Assembly: GCA_963796955.1 (NCBI GenBank)
Contig: CAWCNJ010000003.1
Coordinates: 76,037-140,036 of the forward strand
Direction of reading: 5' to 3'
DNA: 64,000 bases
From: Endomicrobiales bacterium
GTDB taxonomy: Bacteria > Elusimicrobiota > Endomicrobiia > Endomicrobiales > JALOBY01
Each line of letters begins with the position of its first letter. Positions within the stretch are counted from its first letter, which is position 1. The notes beneath the pieces are model-generated. The model saw only the letters and a list, made by a program, of their open reading frames with translations. It was not told the DNA's origin and did not search any database. A program made the translations under genes and the position numbers. This document shows positions 6,090 through 55,836 of the stretch, piece after piece.

Positions 6090-6130
6090 CTCCTCGTTAG
6101 AGTGGTTATGCCATTTTTCTTAAGGTGCGA

Positions 6131-8527
6131 ATGAAAATAGCGTTTGTGGTGCGGAATTATCATAAAAGCGGGGGGATATCAGGATACGTCGCTGAATTGG
6201 CGGAACTGTACGCCAGGGACCACGAAGTTCATGTTTATGCGGCATCGTTCAAGGATGTCGATAATTTTGGCATTAAGTGTCACAAAATACCTATCCTCAC
6301 CTCCTCTCTGCTGGTCCGTTGGAAAAAACACGCTTTAAATAATCTTCTTGAAGTCTGGAGTTTTGCTTTAACGTCGTTTTTTTACGTTAATAGCAAAGAT
6401 TTCGATATAGTGCATTCACAAGGGGACTATTGGGGGCAATTTGACGTTTATACCGTCCATAGTTGCCACAAGGCATGGCTGGAGATAGCCAGCGAAAATG
6501 CATCACTGTGGCAACGATTGTTAAAATCAAAATTTAATCCTCTCCATGCCAATATACTTCTTTCTGAACGGCATTGCCTGAAAAACGCCAGACGCGTGAT
6601 AGCTATTTCCGAGGTAACGAAACGGGAAGTTATGAAATATTATAACGTGCCTGAGTCGAAGATCACCATTGTTCCTCACGGTGTTGATATAGAAAGGTTC
6701 AATATTAAATTGCGCGACGTTTACCGCGCCAAGATCAGAGAAAAACATGGCTTGTCCGAGCAGGATATGGTCATAGTCTTTCCTGCGCATGAGTTTAAGC
6801 GAAAAGGTCTGCCTCAGATAATAGAGGCACTGCATACCCTTAACATGCCTACCCTTTACGTGCTTGTGGTAGGAAAAGATAATCCTTCCGATTCTACAAG
6901 GATAGCCGAAAAATACGGCTTAGCACAGAAAATAATCTTTGCCGGCGCCACATCCGGTATAGAACGTTATTACTGCGCCGCCGATATGATGGTTTTTCCT
7001 ACGTCGTACGAGCCATTTGGAATGATCATTACAGAGGCAATGGCCTGCGGCTTGCCGGTTGTTGTCTCTAAACTTGCCGGCGCAGCCGAACTGATAACCG
7101 ACGGTGTCGACGGGGTATTATTACATGACCACACTGATGTAGGAAGCATCTCCGGTGCGATAAAATTACTCGCTTTGGACAAGCCGATGCGCATGCGTAT
7201 GGGTGAAAAAGCGCTTGCGTTAAGCGAGAAATATACTTGGTCATTGATAAGTGACATAACAATGAGCCTGTATAGAAGAATAACTAATCCTGTTTTAATG
7301 AATATCTGCGTAGTGACCCGCACGACCCTGTTCCACAGTATGGGCGGTATGGAACAACATTTGCGCATGTTAGTGGAAGGCCTCGTAAAGATCGGACACA
7401 GAGTTACGGTCATAACTACAGCCCATCCGGGACATGAACAATTTATTGAGAAAAATGGAGTCTCCTACCATTTTCTCAAAGGAGCCAAACCAGGACGCTA
7501 CTCCCGAAGACTTGCTGCGCGAACTTTGCGGAAATTCAAACAGCTTCATTCCCTTGATCCTTTTGATGTAATACACAGCGAAAGCATGGGACCAGGCGGT
7601 CTTCTAGCCGCTAGTGTTAACAAAAAGTTCCTTGTGCCGATAGTTGTTATCTTTCATGGGATTTTTATAAATGAAATTGAAACTTGTCTTGGTATCCTTT
7701 TCGGACGTACAGGAACAATAGTAAGGCGCTTATATGCGGTTCTGGCCATCTGCCGCCAAATTTTCAGTTATATTAGACGTCAATTCACTCTAGTAAGGCG
7801 GGCGAATGCTGTTATTGCAACCAGTATGAAACAGAAGATGCTCATTAAACGTTATTTCCAATTGCCAGATTCACGAGTACTTAATGTTTTTAATGGTGTT
7901 GACATTGTACCTGCCGATGAAAAGGATATCAATGCGCTAAAAGTAAAAATTGGTATCGGAACGGAACCTGTTGTTCTTTGTATTGCAAGACTGAAATTAG
8001 AAAAGGGAATACATGTAGCGATAAAGGCATTTGCTGAAATAGTAAAAAACAGGCCTGCAAGATTGGTTATCGTTGGAGACGGTGAGTATAGAACGGAACT
8101 TGAAGGATTGGTGTCCACTCTGGGTATCGCAGATAAGGTTTTTTTTGCAGGCATAGTTGATTATTCGGAACTCGGCGTATGTTATGCCGTTGCCGATGTT
8201 TTTGTCAATGCTACGATACGCGAGAATGGATATGATTTGACGATAGCACAAGCTATGGGCTACAAGAGATCTCTTATAGTAACCCAGCTTAAGGCTCTGG
8301 AAGGTGTTATTGAAGATAACGTGAACGGACTTTTGGTACGTAAGGGCGATCCTCTTGATCTGGCATCAAAAATCAACTATATATTAGATCATCCTGAAAA
8401 AGCGTCGGCCATGGCGCTTAAAGCTTATGCTACCTACGATAAGAACTTTACAGCAGAACAGATGGTAAGGAATACTACAGAAGTTTATCAGAAAGCGATC
8501 GCCTCAAGGAAAAGGGGACATTTATGA
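6131..8527 (+). CDS. Tandem-fused double GT4 (GT-B fold) glycosyltransferase
   Basis: There are two complete GT4-like halves. Half 1 runs from MKIAFVV... to ...FPTSYEPFGMIITEAMACGLPVVVS...GVLL (E-x7-E region). Half 2 runs from MNICVVTRTTLFHSMGGME... to ...FVNATIRENGYDLTIAQAMGYKRSLIVT...GLLV. The ATG at 6131 (AAGGTG upstream) is preferred over the GTG at 6125. Confidence 0.8.
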   Translation: MKIAFVVRNYHKSGGISGYVAELAELYARDHEVHVYAASFKDVDNFGIKCHKIPILTSSLLVRWKKHALNNLLEVWSFALTSFFYVNSKDFDIVHSQGDYWGQFDVYTVHSCHKAWLEIASENASLWQRLLKSKFNPLHANILLSERHCLKNARRVIAISEVTKREVMKYYNVPESKITIVPHGVDIERFNIKLRDVYRAKIREKHGLSEQDMVIVFPAHEFKRKGLPQIIEALHTLNMPTLYVLVVGKDNPSDSTRIAEKYGLAQKIIFAGATSGIERYYCAADMMVFPTSYEPFGMIITEAMACGLPVVVSKLAGAAELITDGVDGVLLHDHTDVGSISGAIKLLALDKPMRMRMGEKALALSEKYTWSLISDITMSLYRRITNPVLMNICVVTRTTLFHSMGGMEQHLRMLVEGLVKIGHRVTVITTAHPGHEQFIEKNGVSYHFLKGAKPGRYSRRLAARTLRKFKQLHSLDPFDVIHSESMGPGGLLAASVNKKFLVPIVVIFHGIFINEIETCLGILFGRTGTIVRRLYAVLAICRQIFSYIRRQFTLVRRANAVIATSMKQKMLIKRYFQLPDSRVLNVFNGVDIVPADEKDINALKVKIGIGTEPVVLCIARLKLEKGIHVAIKAFAEIVKNRPARLVIVGDGEYRTELEGLVSTLGIADKVFFAGIVDYSELGVCYAVADVFVNATIRENGYDLTIAQAMGYKRSLIVTQLKALEGVIEDNVNGLLVRKGDPLDLASKINYILDHPEKASAMALKAYATYDKNFTAEQMVRNTTEVYQKAIASRKRGHL

Positions 8528-12263: not shown

Positions 12264-13619
12264 TTACGCGAAGGTATAGAGTTCCAATTTTTCTTTTTTA
12301 CCGCGCAGCGCGCCTTTCGTTAGAAATCGTAACCGCACCGTCCCGCCTAGTTCGTTGACCACATTCTCGGTAAGTATTATGTTCTCTTTCAGGTCTTTGC
12401 AGTAGTCCTGCAGGCGCGATACGGTGTTCACCGGGTCGCCGATAACGGTGTACTCGAAACGTTCCTCGCTTCCTATATTGCCCGAGATAACCTCTCCAGT
12501 ATGGATGGTAATGCCAAGCCGCAGTTCAAATAATCCCTGGGCTTTTCTCTCCGCGTTGTGCGCATCAACCCGTTTCAGAACTTCTTTCGCCATCGCGACG
12601 GCGCGGCGGGCGTCATCCGGGTCGGCGTCAGGCACGCCAAAAACGCACAGGGCGCCGTCGCCAAGGAATTTATCAATTACACCGTCTCGCGATATGGTTG
12701 AACGTACTACTATGGAAAATATCTGGTTAATGGCGGCAACAACCGTCTCAGCCGGGCACTCTTCCGATAGAGCCGTAAAATCGCGGATGTCCGTGCAAAC
12801 CAGCGTGACTTTCTTTTTGGCGCCGCCAAGCGCACTGCGCTCGCGCAAAATATTTTCCACTATCTTCGGGCTTATGTATTTTCCCAGCAGGTTCTTTGCC
12901 AGTTCTTTTTCTTTAAGGCCCTGCACCATCTCCCGCACGCCCATGGTTAAATTCCCAACTTCATCATGATGATCCAGCGGGGGGATAATTACATCAAAAT
13001 TACCTTTGCCTATTTCGCTTACCGCACCGGATAATATTTCTATCGGTTTCACCATAATGCCTACGATGTATAGCGTCAGGAAAAGGCTGGATAACAGCAG
13101 CAGCAGCGCGATCACGACTATCTTCGAGAAAACATTTCTCATCGCGTTATCGATCGTCTCGTTGGAAAAACCAACGCGCACATAACCGACCCTGCTTGAA
13201 GGCCCTTCCAGGGGGATGCCGATGTCGGTTATTGAAACTTTGTTCGCAATGATAGATTGCGCCAGGACTTTTTTAGATGTCGTTAGATTCATGAACAGGG
13301 GAGAACGGTCGGCTTCGCTGATCAGCCGCTGGTCCGTGTGAGAGATGATGATGCCGTTCGCATCCTGCACAATAGCGTAAAGGATGGTTTTTTCCGACCT
13401 GAGTTCCTGAATGCGGTAATGTATACGGAAGGTGTCCAGCCGGGGGATAAGCGATTCGATCGTATCTTTGGCCAGGTAGCCGGCCTTGATGGTCATTTCG
13501 TTGATCTGGGCCTGTTTGACCAGGTTGAAGACCAGCACGCTCATCGCCGAGAGCACAATAACGATAAGGGCTGCGGCCACCAGCCAGAATTTGATCGCAA
13601 GGGATTTTATCTTGAACAT
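12264..13619 (-). CDS. Membrane sensor class III adenylate/guanylate cyclase with a HAMP domain
   Basis: The architecture is N-terminal TM, a periplasmic domain, a second TM, HAMP (VKPIEILSGAVSEIGKGNFDV...DEVGNLTMGVREM) and a cyclase homology domain (VTLVCTDIRDFTALSE, KFLGDGALCVFG, TVIGDPVNTVSRLQ). It is the only minus-strand gene in the window. Confidence 0.85.
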   Translation of the reverse strand: MFKIKSLAIKFWLVAAALIVIVLSAMSVLVFNLVKQAQINEMTIKAGYLAKDTIESLIPRLDTFRIHYRIQELRSEKTILYAIVQDANGIIISHTDQRLISEADRSPLFMNLTTSKKVLAQSIIANKVSITDIGIPLEGPSSRVGYVRVGFSNETIDNAMRNVFSKIVVIALLLLLSSLFLTLYIVGIMVKPIEILSGAVSEIGKGNFDVIIPPLDHHDEVGNLTMGVREMVQGLKEKELAKNLLGKYISPKIVENILRERSALGGAKKKVTLVCTDIRDFTALSEECPAETVVAAINQIFSIVVRSTISRDGVIDKFLGDGALCVFGVPDADPDDARRAVAMAKEVLKRVDAHNAERKAQGLFELRLGITIHTGEVISGNIGSEERFEYTVIGDPVNTVSRLQDYCKDLKENIILTENVVNELGGTVRLRFLTKGALRGKKEKLELYTFA

Positions 13620-13677: not shown

Positions 13678-13706
13678 TTGCGAAAGACCCAATTATCCTA
13701 TATAAT
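13678..13706 (+). promoter_or_regulatory. Sigma70-type promoter (TTGCGA-N17-TATAAT)
   Basis: The -35 TTGCGA (13678-13683), an exact 17-nt spacer and a consensus -10 TATAAT (13701-13706) lie ~60 nt upstream of ATG 13766. Confidence 0.55.
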
Positions 13707-13765
13707 TAACACATAATAATTGGAATTTACAGTGCGCAAATTTGCAACGGTATCCTTTGCATTTG

Positions 13766-15628
13766 ATGAAAAAAATAATCCTCTGCGCCACCTTTATGAC
13801 ATTGCTTCGCTGCCTTGCCCACGGCTATGCCGGTACGTCTGATGACGTGCTGAGCAAGGGACCCGGCGCGCTGGATGTTTCGTTGGGGGGTAATCTTGCC
13901 GGCCTTGGCAACGAAGCTTATTCTGTTTTCTCCAACCCCGCCGCGGTCTCAACCCTTAAAAAAACCGAACTGATAACCAGCAACATATCATACTTTGAAC
14001 AAACCAGCCAGACAACGCTCGGTCTGCTGCTTCCTGTTGACGGTAACGTCTTCAGCGCCATGGTCACCTCTCTCAATTCCGGCGGCTTTGTTCAGCGCGT
14101 GAACCCCTGGGATGAGGGCAGCACGTTCGGCGTATCTTCCAATCTTTTACAGCTCGCCTATTGCCGTGAGATGCTGCGTGGTTTTTCGCTGGGCTTCACG
14201 CTTAAAGAATATTACCAGCTTATCAACGCGAAGAATCTTGCACTTACCGCCAGTGATATCGGCGCGTATTATCAGCCGTTCCCCCGGCTGGGCATAGGTT
14301 TAAATGTACGGAATGTCGTCTCAAGCGAATCTTCCTATTATGTCGACGGGCAAAAGACCATGCTGCCGCTGGGCGGCGATCTGGGTGTCAGCTGGGGCTG
14401 GCAGTTAAAGAAAGCAGCTTTCAAGATCATCGGCGGATTACAGATCGAAAATTCGCAGAATAACGCTTCGGCGGGGCTTGAATGCGCGTACGGGCCGGCG
14501 GCGGTCCGGGTGGGCGCTAATACAGACGGCATGGCCGCGGGTGTCGGCACGCACTTTGGCGATTTTACCATTGATTATGCTATGGCCATGAATGTGTTGG
14601 GGCCCGTCAACACCGTTTCCGTGGGCGTGAAGTTCGGTAAAACGAAAGAGGAATATGAGGAAGACATAAAGCGCATTTACGCCGGCCAGATACTTACCCC
14701 GAAAGAAGCGCATTCGCTGTCAAAACATCACTATCAGGAAGGCTTAAAGCAGATGAATGCCAACCAGACCGCTCTTGCGATAGTAGAGTTCGATACCGCC
14801 CAGCTGCTGGATCCGCAGAATATGGCGGTACGCCGCGAGCTGCTTGCCGCGAAAGCGAAGCTGGATGTTTCAGTCGACGCCGCGCTCATCGCCCGCTACC
14901 GCGACAGCGCCATGAAATCGTACCTTGACCTGAACATGCAAAACGCCCTGGTTGAATGGCAGCGTTTGCTGCTTGTGGACCCCAATAACGAACTGGCGAA
15001 AGAATATATCGCAAAAATTACCGTACGGCTCTCGGATTCCGATGTAAAAAGCGCCGTCTCTAAGATGGATGTAGTTAAGAACACTGAGATCAGCAGGTTG
15101 ATGGATGAAGCCGCCCATTTATACAGTGACAAATCCTATCAGAAAACGATCGCGGTCCTGCGCAAGGTGTTGAAGATAGAGCCGTCATATCAACCCGCGA
15201 AAGAAAAACTTGCCTACACGCTGACCGAATTGAACGGCCAGGTTTCATTGTCCATTGAGAAAGCCAGCAAGCTTATTGATGAGAAGAAATACATTGAAGC
15301 TGCCGCTCCACTACAATTCGCCCGCGACATAAGCCCCGATGATCCGCAACTGCTGGAACTGCTCGCAAAAGTAAACAGCGAAATAGTGCGCAAAGAAAAA
15401 CGCGACCAGCGCAAAAAGAACGACAAGCGTTATTATGAAGCCGTTTCCCTATACATGCAGGCAAACCCGTCCGTGCACCCCAACCCCCAATACAAAAAAG
15501 CCTACGACATTTGCAAAGAAATATTGAGCACCGACCCCTTCTTCGACGCCGCCAAAGACCTGATAGGCCGCATAGACGCAAGAGAAGGCCGCCGAGAAAT
15601 AAGAATGCGCCGCCCGGATGATGAATAG
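13766..15628 (+). CDS. Putative outer-membrane beta-barrel (PorV/FadL-like) fused to a C-terminal TPR-like helical region
   Basis: The signal peptide is MKKIILCATFMTLLRCLAHG. The N-terminal half has GNEAYSVFSNPAAVSTL and alternating-hydrophobic strands ending in ..VSVGVKF. The C-terminal ~300 aa are helical repeats (e.g. ALAIVEFDTAQLLDPQN, ALVEWQRLLLVDPNNELAKEY). The track start at 13742 is TTG; ATG 13766 is preferred. Confidence 0.55.
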   Translation: MKKIILCATFMTLLRCLAHGYAGTSDDVLSKGPGALDVSLGGNLAGLGNEAYSVFSNPAAVSTLKKTELITSNISYFEQTSQTTLGLLLPVDGNVFSAMVTSLNSGGFVQRVNPWDEGSTFGVSSNLLQLAYCREMLRGFSLGFTLKEYYQLINAKNLALTASDIGAYYQPFPRLGIGLNVRNVVSSESSYYVDGQKTMLPLGGDLGVSWGWQLKKAAFKIIGGLQIENSQNNASAGLECAYGPAAVRVGANTDGMAAGVGTHFGDFTIDYAMAMNVLGPVNTVSVGVKFGKTKEEYEEDIKRIYAGQILTPKEAHSLSKHHYQEGLKQMNANQTALAIVEFDTAQLLDPQNMAVRRELLAAKAKLDVSVDAALIARYRDSAMKSYLDLNMQNALVEWQRLLLVDPNNELAKEYIAKITVRLSDSDVKSAVSKMDVVKNTEISRLMDEAAHLYSDKSYQKTIAVLRKVLKIEPSYQPAKEKLAYTLTELNGQVSLSIEKASKLIDEKKYIEAAAPLQFARDISPDDPQLLELLAKVNSEIVRKEKRDQRKKNDKRYYEAVSLYMQANPSVHPNPQYKKAYDICKEILSTDPFFDAAKDLIGRIDAREGRREIRMRRPDDE

Positions 15629-15634
15629 TAACTT

Positions 15635-17194
15635 ATGAAAATGTTCATGCTGTTTTTCATCAACTTCTATACTATGTTCCAACTGTGGATAATTTCATGG
15701 CGAAAAACCATAAGCCCGCGTGTATTTATGGCCTTTTTTGCCATGGGGCTTTTTACCGCTACTTCCGTTGCTTTCGTTTCTCAATGGGTATGCACAAGAT
15801 TTATGGTGCCGAATACGGTTTCATACACATTCAACCCGTTCATAGAGGAGATCGCCAAAATAGTACCGTTGGTTGTATTTATTTTGTTGAATAAAGAAGC
15901 TTTTAAACAATTAAAAGCTACCGATTTTATGTTGCTTGCTCTCGCGACAGGTACTGGTTTTGGTATGATGGAAACCTATTTGTACCTGGTTTCGGGCATG
16001 GATATGACCAACAGATTAACTTTCTCACTGGTGCTTCCTCAGATTTCCTCATACACAACTACATTTGCCGACATCCTCGGCAATTACCAGCAGATTGCTT
16101 ATTCTTTTGCCGGACACGGTATCCTTTCAGCGGCAGTGGGATTGTCTTTGGGCGTTGCTCTTACAGTAGCTATTGATGCTAAGAGCAAAAAATATATTTT
16201 TGCACTACCGACGGTTGTATTGCTATGGGTAATAGCCAATCATTCGATCTCGAATTACCTGGATATTGCAAGTAAGATGTTCTACCCTTTGCAGTTCGTT
16301 TTGTGGTTTGACAGGTCGGGCAGGGTGATAGTCTGGTTCTTTGGCGCATTGTTATTGGGTACGATAATTCGGGAAGAAATACTTCATAGAAATAATCCTG
16401 ATAAAAAAGTTGATGTCGTTCAAAATGAGGCAGCAATGCGTTTTCCTAAGATCAATGTTATGGAAAGAATACTTGATTTTCTGTTAACCGCTTTCATTAT
16501 TCTGCTAGTCGTGCTGTTAAAGTATCAGAGATATACAAACTATGAGATGCTTTTTCGGAATGCGACAAACGTCCTGGCGGTCATTGCAGTGATCAGGGTT
16601 GTTTGGTTGTTTTGGAAAAATAAAGGTGTTTCTTGTGAAACGGTACAGGGATTTAGCGTGAAAGTGTTGTCATACACTGCTCTGGGGCTTACCGTCCTGT
16701 CGGTCTTTGCCTACATCGTACCATTCTCAAGGGTATTATTCCCTTCCGGTATTTATTCTCCATACGAGTTCCTATATAACGCCTTTGGGAGATATTTCAA
16801 CGATTTTGGAGGACTATTACCCGGCTTTATAGCGATAAGCGCGGCTATTGCCGGCATATTTGGCGCATATATAGACCTTTCGGTTGTCTTCGATAATGCA
16901 AGCATTGTCGCTGATAATTGGGGCATGGCTGGGTTGGGGAAAGGCCTTGGGGTTATAAGCCTTGTGATCAATCCGGATGCTACCATTTTTTCAATTATTG
17001 GAGGCGCCATTCTTGGGGGTGGGATAGCACTAGCGGGTATGAGCCTGGGATTACCGGCTATTGCAAGTTGGATATTTGGAAGCACTGTTGGTGGAATAAC
17101 AATCGGGATGATTGAATCGGAGCGAGCCATGCGTAAGCGCCGCACTGAAATACCCGGTAATTCTCCAAACGCAGCTAGATACGAGGACCGATGA
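15635..17194 (+). CDS. PrsW-family intramembrane protease domain protein with a C-terminal glycine-zipper membrane extension
   Basis: PrsW-type motifs are present: NPFIEEIAKIVPLV (EExxK), GTGFGMMETYLY and FAGHGILSAAVGLSLG. The protein is polytopic throughout. The C-terminus is GMAGLGKGLGV...GGAILGGGIALAGMSLG. It is separated by 6 nt from the upstream gene and has an ATGA overlap with the downstream gene. Confidence 0.6.
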   Translation: MKMFMLFFINFYTMFQLWIISWRKTISPRVFMAFFAMGLFTATSVAFVSQWVCTRFMVPNTVSYTFNPFIEEIAKIVPLVVFILLNKEAFKQLKATDFMLLALATGTGFGMMETYLYLVSGMDMTNRLTFSLVLPQISSYTTTFADILGNYQQIAYSFAGHGILSAAVGLSLGVALTVAIDAKSKKYIFALPTVVLLWVIANHSISNYLDIASKMFYPLQFVLWFDRSGRVIVWFFGALLLGTIIREEILHRNNPDKKVDVVQNEAAMRFPKINVMERILDFLLTAFIILLVVLLKYQRYTNYEMLFRNATNVLAVIAVIRVVWLFWKNKGVSCETVQGFSVKVLSYTALGLTVLSVFAYIVPFSRVLFPSGIYSPYEFLYNAFGRYFNDFGGLLPGFIAISAAIAGIFGAYIDLSVVFDNASIVADNWGMAGLGKGLGVISLVINPDATIFSIIGGAILGGGIALAGMSLGLPAIASWIFGSTVGGITIGMIESERAMRKRRTEIPGNSPNAARYEDR

Positions 17195-20100
17195 AACAAG
17201 GCAATAAATATCTCCATATAGCCATAACAGTCGCCCTCTTCCACCTTGCATGCGGAGTCGGGTTTGGTGCTACTATCAGCGGGCATGACTACCAGGGTGG
17301 GGCGCTCGTTCCCAATAATGGTGATGTTCTCAACGGTGTTTTTTATAATATTGGTGAATTTCGCGTTGATTCAGGCGTAACTGTATATATTGCTGTTAAT
17401 ACAAAACTGGAGCTCTACGCTTCAACTGTAACAATTAATGGTGTCATTAACGGGGTTGGGAGCGGTAGTCCTGGAGGATTTGGAGGAAGCCCGAATAATG
17501 CAGGCAGTCCCGGGCAGGGAACTGGGTTTGGTGATGGTGGTATTGCATCGAATGGGTCAAACGGCTACGGTGGATGTGGAGCTGGTTACGGCGGTCTTGG
17601 TGGTCATGGAGGATACATGACATCAAGCGGAACTGCATACGGTTATTCCACACTTGCGACATATCCACCATCGAGTGATGATGTCGAACTTGGTTCAGGA
17701 GGCGGCGGTGGTTGCGGGAGTTATAACGGCACTTCATTTGGTGGTGATGGTGGTGCAGGTGGTGCAGGTATATTGATTGAAGGCAGCAGTGTAACCGTGA
17801 ATGGAACCATTTATGCTAGCGGAAAAAATGGATATGCTGCTAACGGTTCTGCTGAAGATTTTTTAAGTGGTGGTGGGGCAGGTTCGGGTGGTACCGTCCT
17901 CATCCGTGCATTAAATAGTTTCAATGGTTCAGGTACTATAGAAGTTAAAGGTGGAACAGGAGGTACTAGTAATCCGGGAGGTGGTGCAACGGGCGGTTGC
18001 GGCGGTGGCGGTTCTGGTGGACGAATCAAAATATTTTATAATTCGTACTTCTTCAGCGGCAGCAGTACGGTTGCAAATGGCACAAGCAGTGGCACGGGAT
18101 TGCGCAAAGGCGGCGATGGAGCTATCGGGACCGTATTTTCAACGCAAATATCATCGCCTGTGATTTCTGCCAGCAATTCTGCAATATATCAAACCTCGAT
18201 CACCTGGTCTTGGTCCATGGCAATGGGAAGCTGGGGTGGCGCAACAGATAATACCCACTACAAGTTTCGTATATATTCTTCTTCGATTACCCCTTCAACT
18301 TATAATCAATACCAATATATCGCTGAAGTTTCTTCGTCAACCTTCCAATATACTGAAGCTGGATTGCTGCCTAATACCACTTATTCTCGTTACATTGTAA
18401 GTTATACGGATTGGGGTAATTCACTCGCATTGCGCACCACCGACACCTGTACGGGAATAGAGATTCCATCTAATATCTCATTTAATACATATGCTAGTTC
18501 GATCACAGCCAGTATCGTTGCGCCTAACAATATCGCAGCAGGTCTATCAGGCGTTCGTATCAGCTCATCTTCGCCGATCACATCAAGCTATGTGCAATAT
18601 GTTTCAACGACCATTGCAGGATTAACTCCCAACACCACGTACCCATTCTACGTTCAAACTCGTAATGCTGTGGGGATAGAAAATGCCATGGTCGGGCCAT
18701 TTAATAAATGTACCCTCGCTTTGCCTGCGGACACTACGTCGTATTCGGAAGTTCATGTAAGTTCTTTAACTGTTTCGTTTGGTCATAGTACCAATCAGGA
18801 CGGAACTCATTATCAGGTCGATCTTGATACGAACTCGGTGTTCGATGTATCGGATACCATTATTTCCAGCAATACGGTCGGCGGTTCGGCATTATTTACC
18901 GGGCTTGCCGGAAATACCACTTATTATGCCAGAGTCTGCTCGCTCAGTTTTGACGGGGATCAGAGCGTTTTTGTACCGCTTGGGCCTACGGTGACCGGTG
19001 CTAACCTACCTACGTTCAGTGCCTTTACGGCTGTTTCTACCGGGGTAATTACTCTGACGACAGATATTCACGCTAATGCTCCTGATACCTTATATACCTT
19101 GGTTAGTTCAACGAACGCGACATATTCTCCCGCTACCTCAACAATTACGGCAAATCAATCGCAATTTAGCTTTTCTTCCCTGATACCCAACACTTCATAC
19201 TACTTCAGGGCGATGCTTACGGATCGGCGAGGGAACAATTCATCGTGGATCAGCTCCTTTGCCTCTACGGTAACTCTTGCCGCAGCTCCTGTCCGGCAAT
19301 ATTGCTATACAGTATCAACCGGCTCAATTGACTATCGTTTTGCAACGAACGGAAATCCGGGTGACACTGAATATCGCGTTACAGTCAATACCCAAACCGT
19401 GACAGCCGTGGGAGCGCTTGCTGATATTGAAACCTGGATTGCTTTGCCGGGGGGCGCGCTCTCTCTTCACGACTTAATTCCAAACACCCGCTACACTATA
19501 CAAACCCTGGCGCGTAACCGTGCTGGAGTGCAAACGGACGTAACGGTAAGCACCTCGGCGTGCACGTATGCTATCGCTCCTTCAACTGCCTCACTTGATG
19601 TTACCAATAACGGTATCTACTTAAGCTGGCAGGCTCCGGGAAATCCTGTAGGAACGCTCTATGATGTTCGCTATTCAAGCGTCAGCGCCGTCGATACATC
19701 GCCTAAAGACAGTGGGTTGGTTACCAGCACTATCTATCCCCTGCAGGGGCCTTTTACCCCTAACGTTACTTATTATTTCAGCGTAATGGCCAAGAACCAG
19801 GACGGCATTCTTACATCATCTATAACCATTTTTACCTCGACGCTGCCGGGTGTGCCGGCGGCGCCGGATTCTTTTAATACGGTGTTCGTAACATCAATGA
19901 CCATCACGAACGGTGGCGATTTCAATACTCCCGACACTCTGTACTTCTTCGAACAGCAGGCAGGTATTGGCTGGAACGCGGTGAGCGATTGGGTGCCGAA
20001 GAACACCGTGGTAAGTGTTACCGGACTGACGCCCAACACATTGAATATTTTCAGGGTTAAAACAAAGAATGCTGCGGGAATAGAGTCGATCTATAGTTCT

Positions 20101-21348
20101 CCGGCTGGCGGCTGGACTGCTCCGGCGGTCCCTACGCTCGGTTTTGCAGGCGTGTATTCGACGGTGGTTAGCCTGGCGATCGGCGCGAACAGTAATGATC
20201 CTTCAACCAGCTATGCCGTTGCTATCGCAACGAATGCCCAGTTCAATACAGCCATTTCATCTGCAGGCTTATCTGCGGGCGCGGTAACGCTCGATAACCT
20301 TTCCATGTTCACGACTTACTTTTTCCGCGTTCGCGCGTTAAGCGGGCATGCTCGTCCCGATTCGGATTGGTCAACCGCTATTTCATCTGTGACGACCGGT
20401 GTAGAGGGCGTAACCATTACCGGGCCGCAATACGCAAATGCGAATGGCATAACCTGGAACTGGACGCAGGCAAGCGCTGCCGACCTTATAAATTACAATG
20501 TACAGGTGTGGGAGAAAGATGGCACTGCTCCTTTAGTCGTCGCGAACGCGGGAACAAATGCCAGCTATGTGTTTACTGCTGTCGCTGATAAAAAGCAATA
20601 TTATTGCCGTGTGCAGGTTAACAAAACCGGCGGCAGCGTCTGGTCGATCTCCGGCTACACCCTGGTTGATGCTGGCGCGCCTGATCCGGTGAGCCAGGTA
20701 ACGACCGGCAGTGCGCAGACGTTCAGCGATCATACAGTGTTCAACTGGCCGGCGGCAACGGATAGCGAATCGCCCGTCGTTTCTTACTGGCTGCAGGTGG
20801 TTACGCCCAGAAGCGGCTCCGCTCTCGCGTCTCCTTCCAGAAGCCAGGTCGTTTCCACCGATCTGGTGACCGTCTTCGATGCGGAAGTCGGCGGTGTGCT
20901 CACAAAAGAGATCACCGGACTGGAAAGCGGAAAAGTATATTACGCACGCGTAAAGCCCAAAGACAGCGCGGGCAATTGGGGGAATTTCTCCAATTGGTCC
21001 GGCGGTGTCACCGTGTGGAGCTCCGCTGTTGCGAGCGCCAAACTGATAGAACACGCGATAGTTGCCCCCAATCCCGTTAACCCTGATGACGCTATAACAG
21101 AGCGCCGCTCAGCTTCTGTTTTGTTCTACATGCCGACAACCGCTACGGTAAAGATAAAAATATACACCCTGACCGGCCGCTTGGTGTTGGAAAAGTCTGA
21201 AGACATAGTGCCCGTAGCCAATTGCGGTACCTGGCTGTGGGACTGCAAGAACGGCGACGGCGACCGCGTTGCACCCGGCGGCTACATCCTTGTCCTAGAC
21301 GGCCACCGCGAAAAATCCGAACGCGTAAAGATCGCGGTTTGGTACTAA
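17191..21348 (+). CDS. Giant secreted surface protein: Gly-rich predicted beta-solenoid N-domain, ~10 fibronectin-III-like repeats, and a C-terminal FlgD-Ig-like/T9SS-CTD-like beta-sandwich
   Basis: There is a signal-like N-terminus. Residues ~85-310 are GGxGxG-rich (GGFGGSPNNAGSPGQGTGFGDGG.., GGGAGSGGTVLIRA.., GGGGSGGRIKIFY). An FN3 F-strand signature recurs every ~90-100 aa (LTPNTTYPFYVQTRNAVG, LAGNTTYYARV, LIPNTSYYFRA, LIPNTRYTIQTLARNRAG, FTPNVTYYFSVMAKNQDG, LTPNTLNIFRVKTKNAAG, LESGKVYYARVKPKDSAG). The C-terminus is VAPNPVNP..VKIKIYTLTGRLV..WLWDCKNGDGDRVAPGGYILVL. Confidence 0.8.
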   Translation: MKQGNKYLHIAITVALFHLACGVGFGATISGHDYQGGALVPNNGDVLNGVFYNIGEFRVDSGVTVYIAVNTKLELYASTVTINGVINGVGSGSPGGFGGSPNNAGSPGQGTGFGDGGIASNGSNGYGGCGAGYGGLGGHGGYMTSSGTAYGYSTLATYPPSSDDVELGSGGGGGCGSYNGTSFGGDGGAGGAGILIEGSSVTVNGTIYASGKNGYAANGSAEDFLSGGGAGSGGTVLIRALNSFNGSGTIEVKGGTGGTSNPGGGATGGCGGGGSGGRIKIFYNSYFFSGSSTVANGTSSGTGLRKGGDGAIGTVFSTQISSPVISASNSAIYQTSITWSWSMAMGSWGGATDNTHYKFRIYSSSITPSTYNQYQYIAEVSSSTFQYTEAGLLPNTTYSRYIVSYTDWGNSLALRTTDTCTGIEIPSNISFNTYASSITASIVAPNNIAAGLSGVRISSSSPITSSYVQYVSTTIAGLTPNTTYPFYVQTRNAVGIENAMVGPFNKCTLALPADTTSYSEVHVSSLTVSFGHSTNQDGTHYQVDLDTNSVFDVSDTIISSNTVGGSALFTGLAGNTTYYARVCSLSFDGDQSVFVPLGPTVTGANLPTFSAFTAVSTGVITLTTDIHANAPDTLYTLVSSTNATYSPATSTITANQSQFSFSSLIPNTSYYFRAMLTDRRGNNSSWISSFASTVTLAAAPVRQYCYTVSTGSIDYRFATNGNPGDTEYRVTVNTQTVTAVGALADIETWIALPGGALSLHDLIPNTRYTIQTLARNRAGVQTDVTVSTSACTYAIAPSTASLDVTNNGIYLSWQAPGNPVGTLYDVRYSSVSAVDTSPKDSGLVTSTIYPLQGPFTPNVTYYFSVMAKNQDGILTSSITIFTSTLPGVPAAPDSFNTVFVTSMTITNGGDFNTPDTLYFFEQQAGIGWNAVSDWVPKNTVVSVTGLTPNTLNIFRVKTKNAAGIESIYSSPAGGWTAPAVPTLGFAGVYSTVVSLAIGANSNDPSTSYAVAIATNAQFNTAISSAGLSAGAVTLDNLSMFTTYFFRVRALSGHARPDSDWSTAISSVTTGVEGVTITGPQYANANGITWNWTQASAADLINYNVQVWEKDGTAPLVVANAGTNASYVFTAVADKKQYYCRVQVNKTGGSVWSISGYTLVDAGAPDPVSQVTTGSAQTFSDHTVFNWPAATDSESPVVSYWLQVVTPRSGSALASPSRSQVVSTDLVTVFDAEVGGVLTKEITGLESGKVYYARVKPKDSAGNWGNFSNWSGGVTVWSSAVASAKLIEHAIVAPNPVNPDDAITERRSASVLFYMPTTATVKIKIYTLTGRLVLEKSEDIVPVANCGTWLWDCKNGDGDRVAPGGYILVLDGHREKSERVKIAVWY

Positions 21349-21363
21349 TACAGCAAGGCATTC

Positions 21364-22476
21364 ATGAAAGATAATATAGCGGTTCTCATAAACACCTATC
21401 TCAGGCCGTCTGAAGTTTTTATATACGAGCAGATAAGAGCCGTAACGAAATACAATGTTCATGTGCTCTCGCGATCAAATACCAATAACCCTGCCTTTGT
21501 CCATGAACATGTCCACTCGATATCTTCCCAAAACCGGCTTGAAGCATTGCAGTATATGCTCACCCGCAACTCAAATTATTTTAACAAGGTGGTCAAAGAA
21601 CAGGACGTAAGGCTTATCCACGCGCATTTTGGCACTGAAGGTGTCTACGGCATCCCGCTCGCACGTTGCAATTCCATCCCATTGATCACAACATTTCACG
21701 GCCACGATATAACCCGCCTTCCAAAGGCGACCGTCTGGCCAATTTCCTGGGCGCAGTATTGGCTGCATTTTAACGAACTTAAAGAACGCGGAACACTATT
21801 CCTTGCTGTCTCTGATTTTATAAGGAAGCGCCTTATCGAACATGGTTTTCATCAGGACAAAGTCATCACCCATCATTTAGGGATACCCATACCTGCATTG
21901 CCGGAAGTTGTAAAGGATCCGCTATCAATAGTAACCGCAGGCAGGCTTGTAGAGAAGAAAGGCACAGAATATTTGATCAGGGCAATGCGAATCGTCGCCG
22001 ACGCCATACCCGAAGCACGGTTGACGATTTGCGGCGACGGCCCCCTGCGCGCAAGTCTTGAACAGTTGACTGATTCACTGAACCTGACAAAAAACATACA
22101 ATTTGCCGGCTGGAAAACAAAACCTGAAGTTCTGGACATCCTTGCAAGGGCATCGGTCTTTGTACTGCCAAGCGTTACATCCCGCGATGGTGATAGTGAG
22201 GGCCTTGGCATGGTCTTCCTTGAAGCCATGGCGCTGCAAACCTCCGTTATCGGCACTAACCACGGCGGCATCTCTGATGCTATTCAAAATGAAGGTAATG
22301 GCTATCTGGTGAAAGAACGCGACCCGCAAGAAATAGCCGAGAAGATCATTTTCCTTTTAAACAATCCCTCCATAGCATCCCAAATGGGCCTTCAAGGCAG
22401 GAATAGCGTTGAATCCAATTTTGATATAACAAAGCAGATCAAAAAACTGGAAGAACTTTACGAACGTCTTAAATAA
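21364..22476 (+). CDS. GT4-family glycosyltransferase (WcaL-like)
   Basis: GT-B C-terminal motifs are present: VLPSVTSRDGDSEGLGMVFLEAMALQTSVIGTNHGGISDAIQNEGNGYLV. Confidence 0.85.
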   Translation: MKDNIAVLINTYLRPSEVFIYEQIRAVTKYNVHVLSRSNTNNPAFVHEHVHSISSQNRLEALQYMLTRNSNYFNKVVKEQDVRLIHAHFGTEGVYGIPLARCNSIPLITTFHGHDITRLPKATVWPISWAQYWLHFNELKERGTLFLAVSDFIRKRLIEHGFHQDKVITHHLGIPIPALPEVVKDPLSIVTAGRLVEKKGTEYLIRAMRIVADAIPEARLTICGDGPLRASLEQLTDSLNLTKNIQFAGWKTKPEVLDILARASVFVLPSVTSRDGDSEGLGMVFLEAMALQTSVIGTNHGGISDAIQNEGNGYLVKERDPQEIAEKIIFLLNNPSIASQMGLQGRNSVESNFDITKQIKKLEELYERLK

Positions 22477-22580: not shown

Positions 22581-23087
22581 ATGCCTAAAGAATTTCTCGT
22601 GAATCCCAACTTTCAAGAATTTCTGGAAGTGCTAAATAAACACAATGTTGAGTACTGTATATCTGGTGCATATGCGGTATCGTTTCATGCTGAGCCCAGA
22701 TACACTCATGACATTGATGTCTATGTTGCAAAAAATGTTGAAAATTCAAAAAAGGTTTCACAAGCTGTCAAGGAATTCTTTGGCACAAGCATTGATGAGA
22801 AGTATTTTGAAGGTGATAAGGTTATGGCTCGCATGGGAATCGAGCCAAATCAGATAGAATTGTCGAACCACCTTTCAGGCTTAACTGATGATGAAATAAT
22901 AAAACACAGAGTTAAAAGTAAGTATGGCGAAACGGTTACATACTATATCGGGATCAATGAGCTTATAAAGAACAAAGGACTTGTTAAAGACATGCCGCAT
23001 AGAAAACGCAAAGGGCTTCAAGATGGAAGGGACTACTTAACTTTACTTGCTGTAAAAGACCACTTAAGAAAGAAGGCTGATAGATGA
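22581..23087 (+). CDS. Small nucleotidyltransferase-fold protein (minimal NTase/AbiEii-like class)
   Basis: EFLEVLNKHNVEYCISGAYAVSFHAEPRYTHDIDVYV matches the G[GS]-x9-13-[DE]h[DE]h NTase pattern. The gene is AT-rich. Confidence 0.5.
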   Translation: MPKEFLVNPNFQEFLEVLNKHNVEYCISGAYAVSFHAEPRYTHDIDVYVAKNVENSKKVSQAVKEFFGTSIDEKYFEGDKVMARMGIEPNQIELSNHLSGLTDDEIIKHRVKSKYGETVTYYIGINELIKNKGLVKDMPHRKRKGLQDGRDYLTLLAVKDHLRKKADR

Positions 23088-23281
23088 GGAAAAATGTCAA
23101 GATTAAATTCTTTGATTCTTACGAGTCTGCGCAGGAAGATCTGGACAGGGAAACGTTTGATATGGTTCCAACTGACAGAGTGTCGACAACTGAGCATCTA
23201 CGCAGGCAGATGTTTCTGATCAAAGGGCGTACTGTCGATCTGTCAATGAAGAAAGTTATAACGTTTCATAAGATAGTGTAG
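23084..23281 (+). CDS. 65-aa hypothetical protein, translationally coupled to the NTase gene
   Basis: There is an ATGA overlap at 23084-23087. The protein is charged and non-membrane (FFDSYESAQEDLDRETFDMVPTDRVSTTEHLRRQMF). An intrinsic terminator follows. Confidence 0.45.
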   Translation: MRKNVKIKFFDSYESAQEDLDRETFDMVPTDRVSTTEHLRRQMFLIKGRTVDLSMKKVITFHKIV

Positions 23282-23322: not shown

Positions 23323-23328
23323 CTATTT

Positions 23329-23359
23329 AAGAGTGGCCGTATGCCGCTCTTATTTTTTT
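23329..23359 (+). terminator. Rho-independent terminator / leader attenuator
   Basis: A 9-bp stem (AAGAGTGGC / GCCGCTCTT, with one G-U pair) has a 5-nt loop and is followed by ATTTTTTT (23352-23359). Confidence 0.7.
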
Positions 23360-41855: not shown

Positions 41856-42850
<995 letters not shown>

Positions 42851-42854
<4 letters not shown>

Positions 42855-48352: not shown

Positions 48353-48385
48353 GAACTAAGCAGCTCAAGGAATGGAGGAGCCTCT

Positions 48386-48943: not shown

Positions 48944-48951
48944 ATGATCCC

Positions 48952-55773: not shown

Positions 55774-55836
55774 CATGAGCAATTAAGAGTTTAAATACTT
55801 GCAAATATGTGCCAGTTTCGCTATATATAAAGGTAT

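What the first reader, a model, noticed from the sequence alone, without database searches (positions are those of the whole stretch)
13678..22476. Compact barrel-TPR / PrsW-like protease / giant Gly-rich-FN3 adhesin / GT4 module: a candidate undescribed cargo export-processing unit
One strong promoter precedes four co-directional genes with a 6-nt gap, an ATGA overlap and a 15-nt gap. Gene 1 is a signal-peptide protein: its N-terminal half looks like a PorV/FadL-type outer-membrane barrel, and it is fused to ~300 aa of TPR-like helices. Gene 2 is a polytopic protein with PrsW-type intramembrane-protease motifs (EExxK, GFGMMETYLY, HGILSA) plus a glycine-zipper C-terminal membrane domain. Gene 3 is a 1385-aa secreted protein ending in a FlgD-Ig/T9SS-CTD-like beta-sandwich. 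Gene 4 is a GT4. In type IX secretion, PorV-like barrels bind cargo through a C-terminal beta-sandwich and a dedicated protease (PorU) removes it. Here there is no PorU, sortase or other T9SS gene, and a PrsW-like enzyme occupies the adjacent, translationally coupled position. I infer a self-contained system for surface display of the giant protein that does not match a described pathway.
Basis: inference. Interest (0 to 1): 0.7.

Follow-up and report, generated by a model that had tools for sequence, protein, structure and literature searches.

The report
PorQ-like barrel and giant adhesin operon
A tightly packed four-gene operon in an uncultured Gram-negative bacterium encodes an outer-membrane barrel of the type-IX-secretion PorV/PorQ kind fused to a helical tail, a membrane protease fusion protein, a giant repeat-rich surface protein with a matching docking tail, and a sugar transferase. 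It looks like an unusual variant of a known way of pinning large proteins to the cell surface, not a demonstrated new export pathway.

Summary
Four co-directional genes (13766-22476, +) lie behind the best sigma-70-like site of the region, with a 6-nt gap, an ATGA overlap and a 15-nt gap.

- **g1:** the N-terminal half is homologous to the PorV/PorQ family (E 1.7e-16, below the naming cut-off). The C-terminal half is only weakly TPR-like.
- **g2:** a PrsW-family protein that passes the Pfam threshold and keeps all catalytic residues.
- **g3:** signal peptide, Gly-rich domain, about 10 FN3 domains, and a C-terminal domain that weakly matches only T9SS CTDs, best those of PorZ and PorU.
- **g4:** a GT4 glycosyltransferase.

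- g2's detectable relatives are "PrsW + variable C-terminal domain" fusions (PT-TG, nucleases, NlpC/P60, M15). This is the published PrsW-type polymorphic-toxin architecture, in which PrsW is proposed to act on its own tail.
- Distant g2 homologues have no barrel or FN3 neighbour. Only a 72%-identical relative keeps the g1-g2 junction.
- The CTDs of PorZ and PorU are not cleaved and dock on PorQ and PorV, so no PorU substitute is needed.

Best reading: a barrel/CTD surface-anchoring pair that probably depends on a T9SS encoded elsewhere in the genome. Whether that T9SS exists cannot be tested from 64 kb. Both structure predictions failed.

The parts
13678..13706 (+). Sigma-70-like promoter candidate, TTGCGA-17-TATAAT, in the 146-bp divergent intergenic region
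   Evidence: 10 of 12 matches, joint best in 12-24 kb. The site count in the region is not above the shuffles.
13766..15628 (+). g1: secreted outer-membrane protein, 620 aa from the ATG (628 aa from TTG 13742, as in the public annotation)
   Evidence: Signal-peptide-like N-terminus MKKIILCATFMTLLRCLAHGYA.
13832..14653 (+). g1 residues 23-296: PorV/PorQ-family (FadL-like) beta-barrel domain
   Evidence: PorV_fam E 1.7e-16 (60.7 bits, cut-off 90, model positions 6-221 of 326); PorQ E 8e-10. Composition is G/S/T/N-rich at 35%. It ends in a beta-signal-like VSVGVKF (sequence reading). The AF2 test failed.
14654..15625 (+). g1 residues 297-620: helical, charged, weakly TPR-like domain, inferred to be periplasmic
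   Evidence: TPR_19 7e-5 and other sub-threshold TPR hits; weak match to the TPR protein DNAJC3; 51% A/L/E/K/R/Q and 32% charged residues.
15635..16399 (+). g2 residues 1-255: PrsW-family intramembrane metalloprotease domain with intact catalytic residues
   Evidence: PF13367, 45.5 bits (cut-off 23.5). E71, E72, E113, H161 and H203 invariant, N207 nearly invariant.
16400..16864 (+). g2 residues 256-410: four-TM module shared with the nearest relatives P0005-P0007
   Evidence: E 3e-10 to 5e-7; TM segments.
16865..17194 (+). g2 residues 411-519 plus stop: glycine-zipper hydrophobic tail with a basic end. It sits where relatives carry variable toxin or enzyme domains.
   Evidence: no relative shares it; no family match; variable domains in relatives.
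17191..21348 (+). g3: 1385-aa secreted giant protein. Its start overlaps the g2 stop (ATGA), and a GAGG Shine-Dalgarno motif lies upstream.
17272..18180 (+). g3 residues 28-330: Gly-rich, probably beta-solenoid-like N-terminal domain
   Evidence: Sequence. Only a weak AgmC_N hit, E 2e-4. No Pfam or PDB match.
18184..20988 (+). g3 residues 332-1266: array of 8 clear and 2 divergent FN3 domains, period about 93 aa
21025..21345 (+). g3 residues 1279-1385: C-terminal T9SS-type CTD-like domain, closest to the CTDs of PorZ and PorU
   Evidence: PorZ model 1e-7, aligned to model positions 670-753 of 757; PorU model 1.3e-4. FlgD_ig 0.004; the only PDB hit is 5M11_A (the PorZ entry, deposited as 'Immunoreactive 84kD antigen PG93') residues 672-756, E 0.2. 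All are below the curated cut-offs.
21364..22476 (+). g4: GT4 glycosyltransferase
   Evidence: Glycos_transf_1, 5e-40.

Best explanation
This is an envelope operon for a giant surface protein. It sits inside a low-GC surface-glycan island of an uncultured diderm.

Proposed steps:
- **g1** is inserted in the outer membrane as a PorV/PorQ-family barrel. Its helical, TPR-like C-terminal half lies in the periplasm. (Homology is shown; topology is inferred.)
- **g3** is exported by Sec. It carries a Gly-rich head and about 10 FN3 domains. Its uncleaved, PorZ/PorU-like C-terminal domain docks non-covalently on the g1 barrel and holds it on the cell surface. This mirrors PorZ on PorQ, PorU on PorV, and SprB or PG1035 on the PorP-like barrels SprF and PorP (docking is inferred by analogy). 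In F. johnsoniae the gene for such a barrel is often next to its cargo gene (own knowledge, not checked here).
- **Crossing the outer membrane** most likely uses a T9SS translocon encoded outside the window (inferred, untested).
- **g4**, with the upstream sugar genes, probably glycosylates the protein or its lipid or glycan surroundings (inferred).
- **g2** is not a PorU surrogate. It belongs to the 'PrsW + extra TM module + variable C-terminal domain' fusion family. It most likely cleaves in cis, or cleaves substrates at the periplasmic face of the inner membrane, and so releases or regulates its own glycine-zipper tail.

Why g2 is translationally coupled to g1 and g3 remains unexplained.
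For: - Tight operon geometry.
- g1 matches PorV_fam at E 1.7e-16 and PorQ at 8e-10.
- The g3 tail hits T9SS CTD and FlgD-Ig models. The best hits are the C-terminal ends of the PorZ and PorU models, plus the CTD of the PorZ crystal structure 5M11 as the sole PDB hit.
- g3 has no C-terminal TM segment.
- LolA in the window shows a diderm envelope.
- Literature:
  - The PorU and PorZ CTDs are not cleaved, and PorQ anchors PorZ (PMC10947112).
  - PorP-like barrels anchor type B CTD cargo, and the TPR protein PorE joins that complex (PMC9143113, PMC7192894).
- g2's relatives carry PT-TG, EndoU, Endonuclease_NS_2, Cytotoxic, CdiA_C, M15, M91 and NlpC/P60 tails. This matches the PrsW-type architecture of PMC3482391 section 9.
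- The g2 tail is unique among 150 relatives, while the middle module is shared.
- The g1-g2 junction (6-nt spacer) is conserved in a relative at 72% amino-acid identity, under purifying selection.
Against: - Every T9SS-related match is below the curated family cut-off.
- No fold evidence exists. The single-sequence AF2 models had pLDDT 30.8 and 44.2, and the Foldseek output was meaningless.
- No T9SS core gene is among the roughly 45 window ORFs scanned. The organism is unidentified, because the genome is absent from the GTDB representative set.
- Shine-Dalgarno motifs precede 19 of 32 genes and the promoter is sigma-70-like. Together these argue weakly against Bacteroidota proper.
- A barrel-TPR fusion is not a described PorV or PorQ architecture.
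- This model does not explain the role of g2.
Confidence: 0.45

Rival explanations
1. One reading: a self-contained, T9SS-independent display system. The g1 barrel (with TPR) exports or holds g3 through its CTD. The PrsW-like g2 removes or processes the CTD in place of PorU.
For: - Translational coupling of g1, g2 and g3, with the g1-g2 junction conserved in a relative.
- No T9SS gene in 64 kb.
- g1 and the CTD are both far from canonical T9SS models, below the cut-offs.
- There is precedent for a single 14-strand barrel with TPR acting as a translocon for adjacent cargo: Slam/T11SS (PMC8406197).
Against: - PrsW is an inner-membrane enzyme, whereas CTD removal by PorU happens on the cell surface.
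- The CTD resembles the uncleaved PorZ and PorU type (PMC10947112).
- g2's relatives are cis-acting fusion proteins with variable tails.
- More distant g2 homologues have no barrel or FN3 neighbour.
- Absence of a T9SS from the genome is untested.
Confidence: 0.12
2. g2 is a PrsW-type polymorphic toxin or effector. Its glycine-zipper tail is released by autoproteolysis and acts on membranes. The operon is then a contact or competition module, with g3 as the adhesin and g1 as the outer-membrane exit or lateral gate for the hydrophobic peptide.
For: - Seven of 42 relatives carry PT-TG pre-toxin domains. Others carry nuclease, CdiA_C, Cytotoxic or peptidase toxin domains.
- The tail occupies the variable cassette position and is unique.
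- A PrsW-dependent toxin release pathway has been proposed in PMC3482391.
- FadL-type barrels have lateral openings (own knowledge).
Against: - The tail matches no recognised toxin family.
- No small immunity-like gene follows g2. The next gene is g3, with an ATGA overlap.
- PADLOC finds nothing.
- The nearest relatives carry cell-wall hydrolase-type tails (NlpC/P60 in P0006; Peptidase_M15 in two relatives), which need not be toxins.
- PrsW toxins were described mainly in monoderms.
Confidence: 0.12
3. g1 is a glycan or exopolysaccharide-related outer-membrane porin with a periplasmic TPR scaffold, functionally like PgaA, BcsC, PelB or AlgE-AlgK. It would serve the surrounding sugar locus. On this reading g2 and g3 are only loosely linked neighbours.
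For: - The operon lies in a glycan island: GT2, a double GT4, a dehydratase/epimerase, a DegT aminotransferase, a MurJ/Wzx-like flippase and g4 GT4.
- Barrel plus TPR is the hallmark of synthase-dependent EPS porins (PMC8406197 discussion).
Against: - The barrel is homologous to PorV/PorQ, not to PgaA or BcsC barrels.
- The domain order is reversed (barrel first, then TPR).
- The locus looks flippase-dependent (Wzx-type), not synthase-dependent.
- Tight coupling to g2 and g3, together with the CTD match, is left unexplained.
Confidence: 0.1

Closest known systems
T9SS attachment-complex pairs PorQ-PorZ and PorV-PorU (Porphyromonas gingivalis)
   Same: A PorV/PorQ-family outer-membrane barrel is paired with a large surface protein. 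The C-terminal beta-sandwich of that protein is retained and docks on the barrel. The g3 tail scores best against the PorZ and PorU CTDs, and g1 scores against PorV_fam and PorQ.
   Different: - g1 has a 320-aa helical C-terminal extension that is not described for PorV or PorQ.
- All scores are below the family cut-offs.
- g3 is an FN3 adhesin-like protein, not a PorZ or PorU orthologue.
- No other T9SS gene is nearby, and the host is probably not Bacteroidota.
Type B CTD cargo with a dedicated barrel: PorP-PorE-PG1035 (P. gingivalis) and SprF-SprB (Flavobacterium johnsoniae) (PMC9143113, PMC7192894)
   Same: - A cargo-specific barrel anchors a surface protein, giant in the case of SprB. In F. 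johnsoniae the barrel gene typically lies next to its cargo gene (own knowledge, not checked here).
- A periplasmic TPR-containing partner (PorE) joins the barrel. g1 combines barrel and TPR in one chain.
   Different: - The barrel family is PorV/PorQ-like, not PorP/SprF.
- The CTD is not type B.
- The TPR is fused rather than a separate lipoprotein.
- A PrsW fusion gene is intercalated.
PrsW-type polymorphic toxin architecture (Zhang et al. 2012, PMC3482391)
   Same: An N-terminal multi-TM PrsW peptidase with intact catalytic motifs is followed by a C-terminal region that varies among homologues. Relatives carry PT-TG, nuclease, CdiA_C and peptidase domains.
   Different: - The g2 tail is a hydrophobic glycine-zipper segment with no known toxin family.
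- There is no obvious immunity gene.
- The host is a diderm.
- The gene is embedded between an outer-membrane barrel gene and an adhesin gene.
Bacillus subtilis PrsW, the site-1 protease of anti-sigma-W RsiW
   Same: Same Pfam family and the same catalytic motifs.
   Different: - No ECF sigma or anti-sigma gene is adjacent.
- g2 has about 260 extra residues: a four-TM module plus the tail.
Slam / type XI secretion (DUF560 barrel with periplasmic TPR) and the EPS porins PgaA, BcsC and PelB
   Same: An outer-membrane barrel fused to periplasmic TPR repeats, encoded next to its cargo or glycan genes (PMC8406197).
   Different: - No DUF560, PgaA or BcsC homology. The only related hit is TPR_Slam at E 0.05.
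- The domain order is reversed.
- The cargo lacks the 8-strand barrel of Slam substrates.

Membership tests
PorV/PorQ family (NCBIfam NF033709; PorQ NF033711) | Score at or above the curated family cut-off | tested here: not met
   60.7 bits against a cut-off of 90 (E 1.7e-16; model positions 6-221 of 326). PorQ: 38.3 bits against 220. Homology is significant, but membership at naming level is not reached. No Pfam outer-membrane barrel family was reported for the barrel region, even at E up to 10.
PorV/PorQ family | 14-strand FadL-like outer-membrane beta-barrel fold | tested here: inconclusive
   The single-sequence AF2 model had pLDDT 30.8. No MSA was obtainable. My reading of the sequence gives about 14 amphipathic strands and a VSVGVKF beta-signal; this is inference only. 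The crude moment scan was not discriminating.
PorV/PorQ family | Works with a T9SS (SprA/Sov and the other core components) and binds CTDs | not testable with these tools
   Only 64 kb of the genome is available. The genome is not in the GTDB representative set.
T9SS cargo C-terminal domain (TIGR04183 / PF18962 / FlgD_ig-type) | Model score above the cut-off | tested here: not met
   TIGR04183 14 bits (cut-off 23); PF18962 13.2 bits (27); FlgD_ig 17.5 bits (27).
T9SS cargo C-terminal domain | A domain of 80-100 aa at the extreme C-terminus of a Sec-exported protein, similar to solved CTDs | tested here: inconclusive
   The position and signal peptide fit. The match to the PorZ model is confined to its CTD, E 1e-7. 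The sole PDB hit is 5M11 (PorZ) residues 672-756, E 0.2. The AF2 model was too poor to test the fold.
Type IX secretion system (as a system) | Core genes present (sprA/sov, porK/L/M/N, porT, porU, porP) | tested here: not met
   None were found among the roughly 45 ORFs of this window. This says nothing about the rest of the genome.
PrsW family (PF13367) | Score above the gathering threshold, polytopic topology, and conserved EExxK / FxxxE / H / HxxxN motifs | tested here: met
   45.5 bits against 23.5. E71, E72, E113, H161 and H203 invariant, N207 nearly invariant; at least 11 hydrophobic segments.
PrsW-type polymorphic toxin (PMC3482391) | An N-terminal PrsW domain with a C-terminal domain that varies among homologues | tested here: met
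   at least 12 different C-terminal families among 42 relatives, including PT-TG in 7; the g2 tail is unique and the middle module is shared.
PrsW-type polymorphic toxin | A recognisable toxin domain and an adjacent immunity gene | tested here: not met
   No family matches residues 252-519. The downstream gene is the 1385-aa g3.
PrsW-RsiW type signalling protease | Genomic or functional link to an ECF sigma / anti-sigma pair | tested here: not met
   No sigma or anti-sigma gene flanks the operon. The neighbour is a Cache-HAMP cyclase.
Slam/T11SS and EPS porin-TPR proteins | A DUF560, PgaA or BcsC-type barrel with an N-terminal TPR | tested here: not met
   no barrel hit to these families and TPR_Slam at E 0.052 only. 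The domain order is reversed.
GT4 glycosyltransferase | Glycos_transf_1 and Glyco_transf_4 domains above threshold | tested here: met
   137 and 55 bits.
Fibronectin type III repeat protein | Tandem fn3 domains above threshold | tested here: met
   119 bits, 6 stretches; 8 clear plus 2 divergent copies.

The most novel reading that the evidence does not exclude
In a lineage that lacks a canonical T9SS, a PorV/PorQ-derived barrel fused to a periplasmic TPR arm works on its own as the outer-membrane exit and anchor for an adjacent giant CTD-bearing adhesin, in the manner of Slam. A translationally coupled PrsW fusion protein in the inner membrane hands over or processes the cargo, or its own glycine-zipper tail. 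This would be a minimal, previously undescribed relative or precursor of type IX secretion.
Probability: 0.12. Interest if true: 0.8.

Novelty: new variant of a known kind. Interest (0 to 1): 0.4.

Why it matters
- **If the anchoring reading is right:** the PorQ-PorZ and PorP-cargo principle, a dedicated barrel holding an uncleaved CTD, extends to a deep-branching uncultured diderm. It also shows a new fusion of barrel with periplasmic TPR, which merges the roles that PorP and PorE play separately.
- **If a T9SS is truly absent:** the locus would be a minimal CTD-barrel display system and would bear on how T9SS evolved.
- **Independently of both:** g2 places the little-studied PrsW-plus-variable-tail (polymorphic-toxin-like) architecture in a diderm envelope operon. 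The Tad-pilus-embedded PrsW-NlpC/P60 relative suggests that these fusions serve envelope machines more widely.

Tried and rejected
Searches and tests that gave nothing:
- **Homologues of g1.** Word-indexed searches with full-length g1 and with the barrel alone returned only the query itself and one 72%-identical fragment. No MSA was possible.
- **Structure prediction.** Single-sequence AF2 of the barrel (pLDDT 30.8) and of the CTD (pLDDT 44.2) both failed. Foldseek on the CTD model gave no hit at E <= 0.001, so I disregard it.
- **PDB sequence searches.** Full-length g1 gave only a weak TPR hit. The g3 Gly-rich head gave nothing. The g2-family profile gave only spurious TM hits.
- **Genome scan with the g2 alignment.** The first alignment was too diverse.
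- **Metagenome scan.** It returned 6 mostly short loci.
- **Exact-protein look-ups.** They reached only Logan contigs that lie within the window or extend past it by only a few hundred bases.
- **Cluster look-up.** It gave no names or taxa.
- **Plasmid tblastn** for g1 and g2: no match.
- **PADLOC:** nothing for g1-g4.
- **Literature search for the run accession:** nothing.

Ideas considered and rejected:
- g3 as a lipoprotein: its LFHLAC segment fails the lipobox pattern.
- g2 as an RsiW-type signalling protease: there is no sigma or anti-sigma neighbour.
- A defence-system reading: there are no PADLOC hits.
- Other CTD or barrel paralogues in the window: none found.

Full report

Yes.
- g1: 13742 (TTG) or 13766 (ATG) to 15628.
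- g2: 15635-17194.
- g3: 17191-21348.
- g4: 21364-22476.
- The gaps are 6 nt, a 4-nt ATGA overlap and 15 nt.

The 146-bp divergent intergenic region holds TTGCGA-17-TATAAT at 13678-13706. At 10 of 12 positions it is the joint best match in 12-24 kb. The number of promoter-like sites in that stretch (20) is what shuffles give (18.2 +/- 3.7), so the promoter is plausible rather than demonstrated. The first convincing + strand terminator is at 23328-23352.

Between g4 and that terminator lies an AT-rich pair of small ORFs that looks like an unrelated insertion.

**2. What the four genes are**

*g1*
- It starts with a signal-peptide-like segment.
- Residues 28-228 match the NCBIfam PorV/PorQ family model at E 1.7e-16. 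The score is 60.7 bits, below the naming cut-off of 90. The PorQ equivalog model matches at 8e-10.
- No Pfam outer-membrane barrel family was reported for the barrel region, even at E up to 10.
- The N-terminal part is rich in G/S/T/N (35%). The C-terminal 324 residues are rich in A/L/E/K/R/Q (51%) and charged (32%).
- The C-terminal part gives only sub-threshold TPR matches: TPR_19 at 7e-5, and a weak hit to the TPR protein DNAJC3.
- From reading the sequence I count about 14 amphipathic strands, an N-terminal FadL/PorV-like 'GG...NPA' segment and a closing VSVGVKF beta-signal. That is inference.
- An even number of strands would put the helical domain in the periplasm.

*g2*
- It passes the Pfam PrsW threshold (45.5 bits against 23.5).
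- E71, E72, D97, G106, G108, E113, H161 and H203 are invariant, and N207 nearly so, across 42 relatives.
- It has at least 11 hydrophobic segments.

*g3*
- Signal peptide, then a Gly-rich segment of about 300 aa with no family. The only hit is a weak AgmC_N match at 2e-4.
- Eight clear and two divergent FN3 domains with a period of about 93 aa.
- No C-terminal TM segment.
- A last domain of about 100 aa whose matches are all T9SS CTD or FlgD-Ig models:
  - PorZ model, 1e-7, aligned only to model positions 670-753 of 757.
  - PorU model, 1.3e-4, aligned only to its C-terminal end.
  - FlgD_ig, 0.004.
  - Por_Secre_tail, 0.04-0.12.
- The single PDB hit at E <= 10 is the CTD of the PorZ crystal structure 5M11, residues 672-756, E 0.2.
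- Each match is sub-threshold, but all point to the same kind of domain at the right position.

*g4* is a clear GT4.

**3. Surroundings**

The operon lies in the first roughly 24 kb of the window. GC there is 0.37-0.52, against 0.51-0.55 for the rest. This region also holds:
- a GT2;
- an IS3-family transposase;
- an SLT-domain protein;
- a double GT4;
- a 4,6-dehydratase/epimerase;
- a DegT aminotransferase;
- a MurJ/Wzx-like flippase;
- a divergent Cache-HAMP class III cyclase.

Downstream come rimP-nusA-infB and housekeeping genes, LolA (so the cell is a diderm) and a MoxR-DUF58-BatA-type cluster.

None of the roughly 45 ORFs scanned hits any T9SS component other than g1 and the g3 tail. 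The window holds no second CTD and no second barrel paralogue.

The organism could not be named:
- All proteins looked up (the four operon products, the flanking cyclase and NusA) are singletons at 90% identity, except the flippase, whose cluster has one other member, a 56-aa fragment.
- The genome is not in the GTDB representative set.
- Shine-Dalgarno-like motifs precede 19 of 32 genes. Together with the sigma-70-type promoter, this argues weakly against Bacteroidota proper.

**4. Relatives and co-occurrence**

g1 has one detectable relative in 5.8 billion clusters. It is a 394-aa fragment on a 1.3-kb metagenome contig.
- It is 72% identical, with pN 0.17 against pS 0.79, so the gene is real and constrained.
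- Its stop codon is followed, after the same 6-nt spacer, by the start of a g2 homologue with 25 of 28 residues identical.
- The g1-g2 junction is therefore conserved, but only in a close relative.

An exhaustive HMMER search with g2 found only 175 proteins at E <= 1e-3 among 1.84 billion.
- They share the PrsW domain.
- The nearest three (P0005-P0007) also share the next four-TM module, residues 256-410, at E 3e-10 to 5e-7.
- None shares the glycine-zipper tail, residues 411-519.

A Pfam scan of 42 long relatives shows that the tails vary:
- PT-TG pre-toxin domain in 7 relatives;
- Endonuclease_NS_2 in 2 and EndoU in 2;
- one each of Cytotoxic, CdiA_C, Peptidase_M91, NlpC/P60 and a nucleotidyltransferase, plus two different M15 domains.

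This is the 'PrsW-type' polymorphic-toxin architecture of Zhang et al. (PMC3482391, section 9). In it, the N-terminal PrsW domain is proposed to extrude and autoproteolytically release the C-terminal domain.

Contexts of the nearest g2 homologues that could be read:
- **L002** (33% identity): a PrsW-NlpC/P60 fusion inside a Tad/Flp pilus locus with RcpC, a secretin, a CpaE/F-type ATPase and TadB/C. The gene upstream of it is unrelated to g1.
- **L005** (38%): preceded by unrelated small ORFs.
- **L006** (38%): preceded by a 180-aa ORF that reads like a thioredoxin-type protein (my reading of the sequence, not tested).
- **L001**: a contig with very long ORFs in several frames (high-GC, possibly actinobacterial; inference) and no barrel gene.

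The barrel / PrsW / FN3-CTD triad was therefore not seen outside this lineage. The sample is small.

**5. How it most likely works**

*The g1-g3 pair.* The pairing of a PorV/PorQ-family barrel with a giant protein whose tail resembles the PorZ and PorU CTDs fits a known principle.
- The PorU and PorZ CTDs are not cleaved, and PorZ is held on the surface by the barrel PorQ (PMC10947112).
- Type B CTD cargo such as PG1035 and the giant adhesin SprB are held by the PorP-like barrels PorP and SprF. The TPR-containing periplasmic protein PorE joins the PorP-PG1035 complex (PMC9143113, PMC7192894).
- I therefore propose that g3 is Sec-exported, reaches the surface, and stays there because its uncleaved CTD docks on g1. 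The periplasmic helical arm of g1 would play a PorE-like scaffolding role.
- Shown: homology of both partners, at sub-threshold level, and their operon linkage.
- Inferred: docking, topology, and the use of a T9SS translocon encoded elsewhere.

*g4.* Together with the upstream sugar genes, it plausibly glycosylates the protein or its anchor (inferred).

*g2.* It is unlikely to substitute for PorU:
- it sits in the inner membrane, whereas PorU works on the surface;
- its relatives are cis-acting fusions;
- the CTD type needs no removal.

Its own role is open. It may release or regulate the glycine-zipper tail, or cleave an inner-membrane-proximal substrate. Its conserved coupling to g1 is the main unexplained point.

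**6. Rivals**

Favoured by the coupling, by the absence of T9SS genes in 64 kb, and by the Slam/T11SS precedent of a TPR-bearing 14-strand barrel serving adjacent cargo (PMC8406197). Disfavoured by the points in section 5 and by the untested genome. Confidence 0.12.
- **(b) g2 as a bona fide polymorphic toxin with a membrane-active tail.** Disfavoured because there is no toxin family, no immunity gene and no PADLOC hit. Confidence 0.12.
- **(c) g1 as an EPS-type porin-TPR for the sugar locus.** Disfavoured by the wrong barrel family and the reversed domain order. Confidence 0.10.
- **Best explanation:** confidence 0.45.
- **Remainder:** unknown.

**7. Comparison, novelty and verdict**

The locus works most like the PorQ-PorZ and PorP/SprF-cargo anchoring pairs. 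It is not a demonstrable member of those families, because every curated cut-off was missed and no fold test succeeded.

New relative to what is described:
- the barrel-TPR fusion;
- the intercalated PrsW-plus-glycine-zipper fusion;
- the occurrence in a deep, probably non-Bacteroidota lineage.

I rate it a new variant of a known kind, with interest 0.4. The most novel reading not excluded is a minimal T9SS-independent CTD-barrel display system. I give it probability about 0.12 and interest 0.8 if true. One computation would decide it: a T9SS HMM scan of the complete genome.

Noticed in passing
window 1-24000 versus 24000-64000: The first roughly 24 kb has GC 0.37-0.52, against 0.51-0.55 for the rest. 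It holds the surface-glycan genes, the operon studied here and an IS3-family transposase (1503-2936). This looks like a variable or laterally acquired envelope island directly upstream of rimP-nusA-infB. An independent Logan assembly of run ERR11718638 ends about 540 bp upstream of the 3475 gene, just downstream of the IS3 transposase ORF.
   Followed up: partly
window 22581-23281: An AT-rich pair of small ORFs, 168 aa at 22581-23087 and about 65 aa starting at 23084 with an ATGA overlap, sits between g4 and the strong terminator at 23328-23352. No family hit was found in NCBIfam or PADLOC. The layout resembles a toxin-antitoxin pair or a small mobile insertion.
   Followed up: partly
L002 2262-11592 (MAG contig CAZVUO010000008.1): The closest genome-resident g2 relative is a PrsW-NlpC/P60 fusion (686 aa). 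It is embedded in a Tad/Flp pilus locus, between a CpaE/CpaF-type fused ATPase and a TadB/C-like gene, with RcpC and a secretin upstream. I do not know of a described association of a PrsW fusion with a pilus machine.
   Followed up: partly
window 12264-13619 (- strand): A Cache-HAMP class III nucleotide cyclase is transcribed divergently from the operon. It has its own promoter-like site (13658-13630). Its PADLOC PycC hits are probably generic cyclase-fold matches. It could be a regulator of the operon.
   Followed up: no
window 41856-57405: A MoxR - DUF58 - BatA/VWA - DUF4159 - GATase1-like - DUF4175 - TPR cluster (Bat-like) is interleaved with two TMEM260-like (DUF2723-type) putative protein O-mannosyltransferase genes, at 48886-50271 and 50944-52989. 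The second carries TPR repeats.
   Followed up: no
window 6125-8527: A single 800-aa ORF encodes two complete GT4 glycosyltransferase modules in tandem.
   Followed up: no
window 17272-18180 (g3 residues 28-330): The Gly-rich N-terminal domain of g3 has regularly spaced 'V.V.G.I.a.G' segments, which suggests a beta-solenoid. No Pfam or PDB match was found. The only hit is a weak one (E 2e-4) to the N-terminal domain of the Myxococcus gliding protein AgmC, and it may be compositional.
   Followed up: partly
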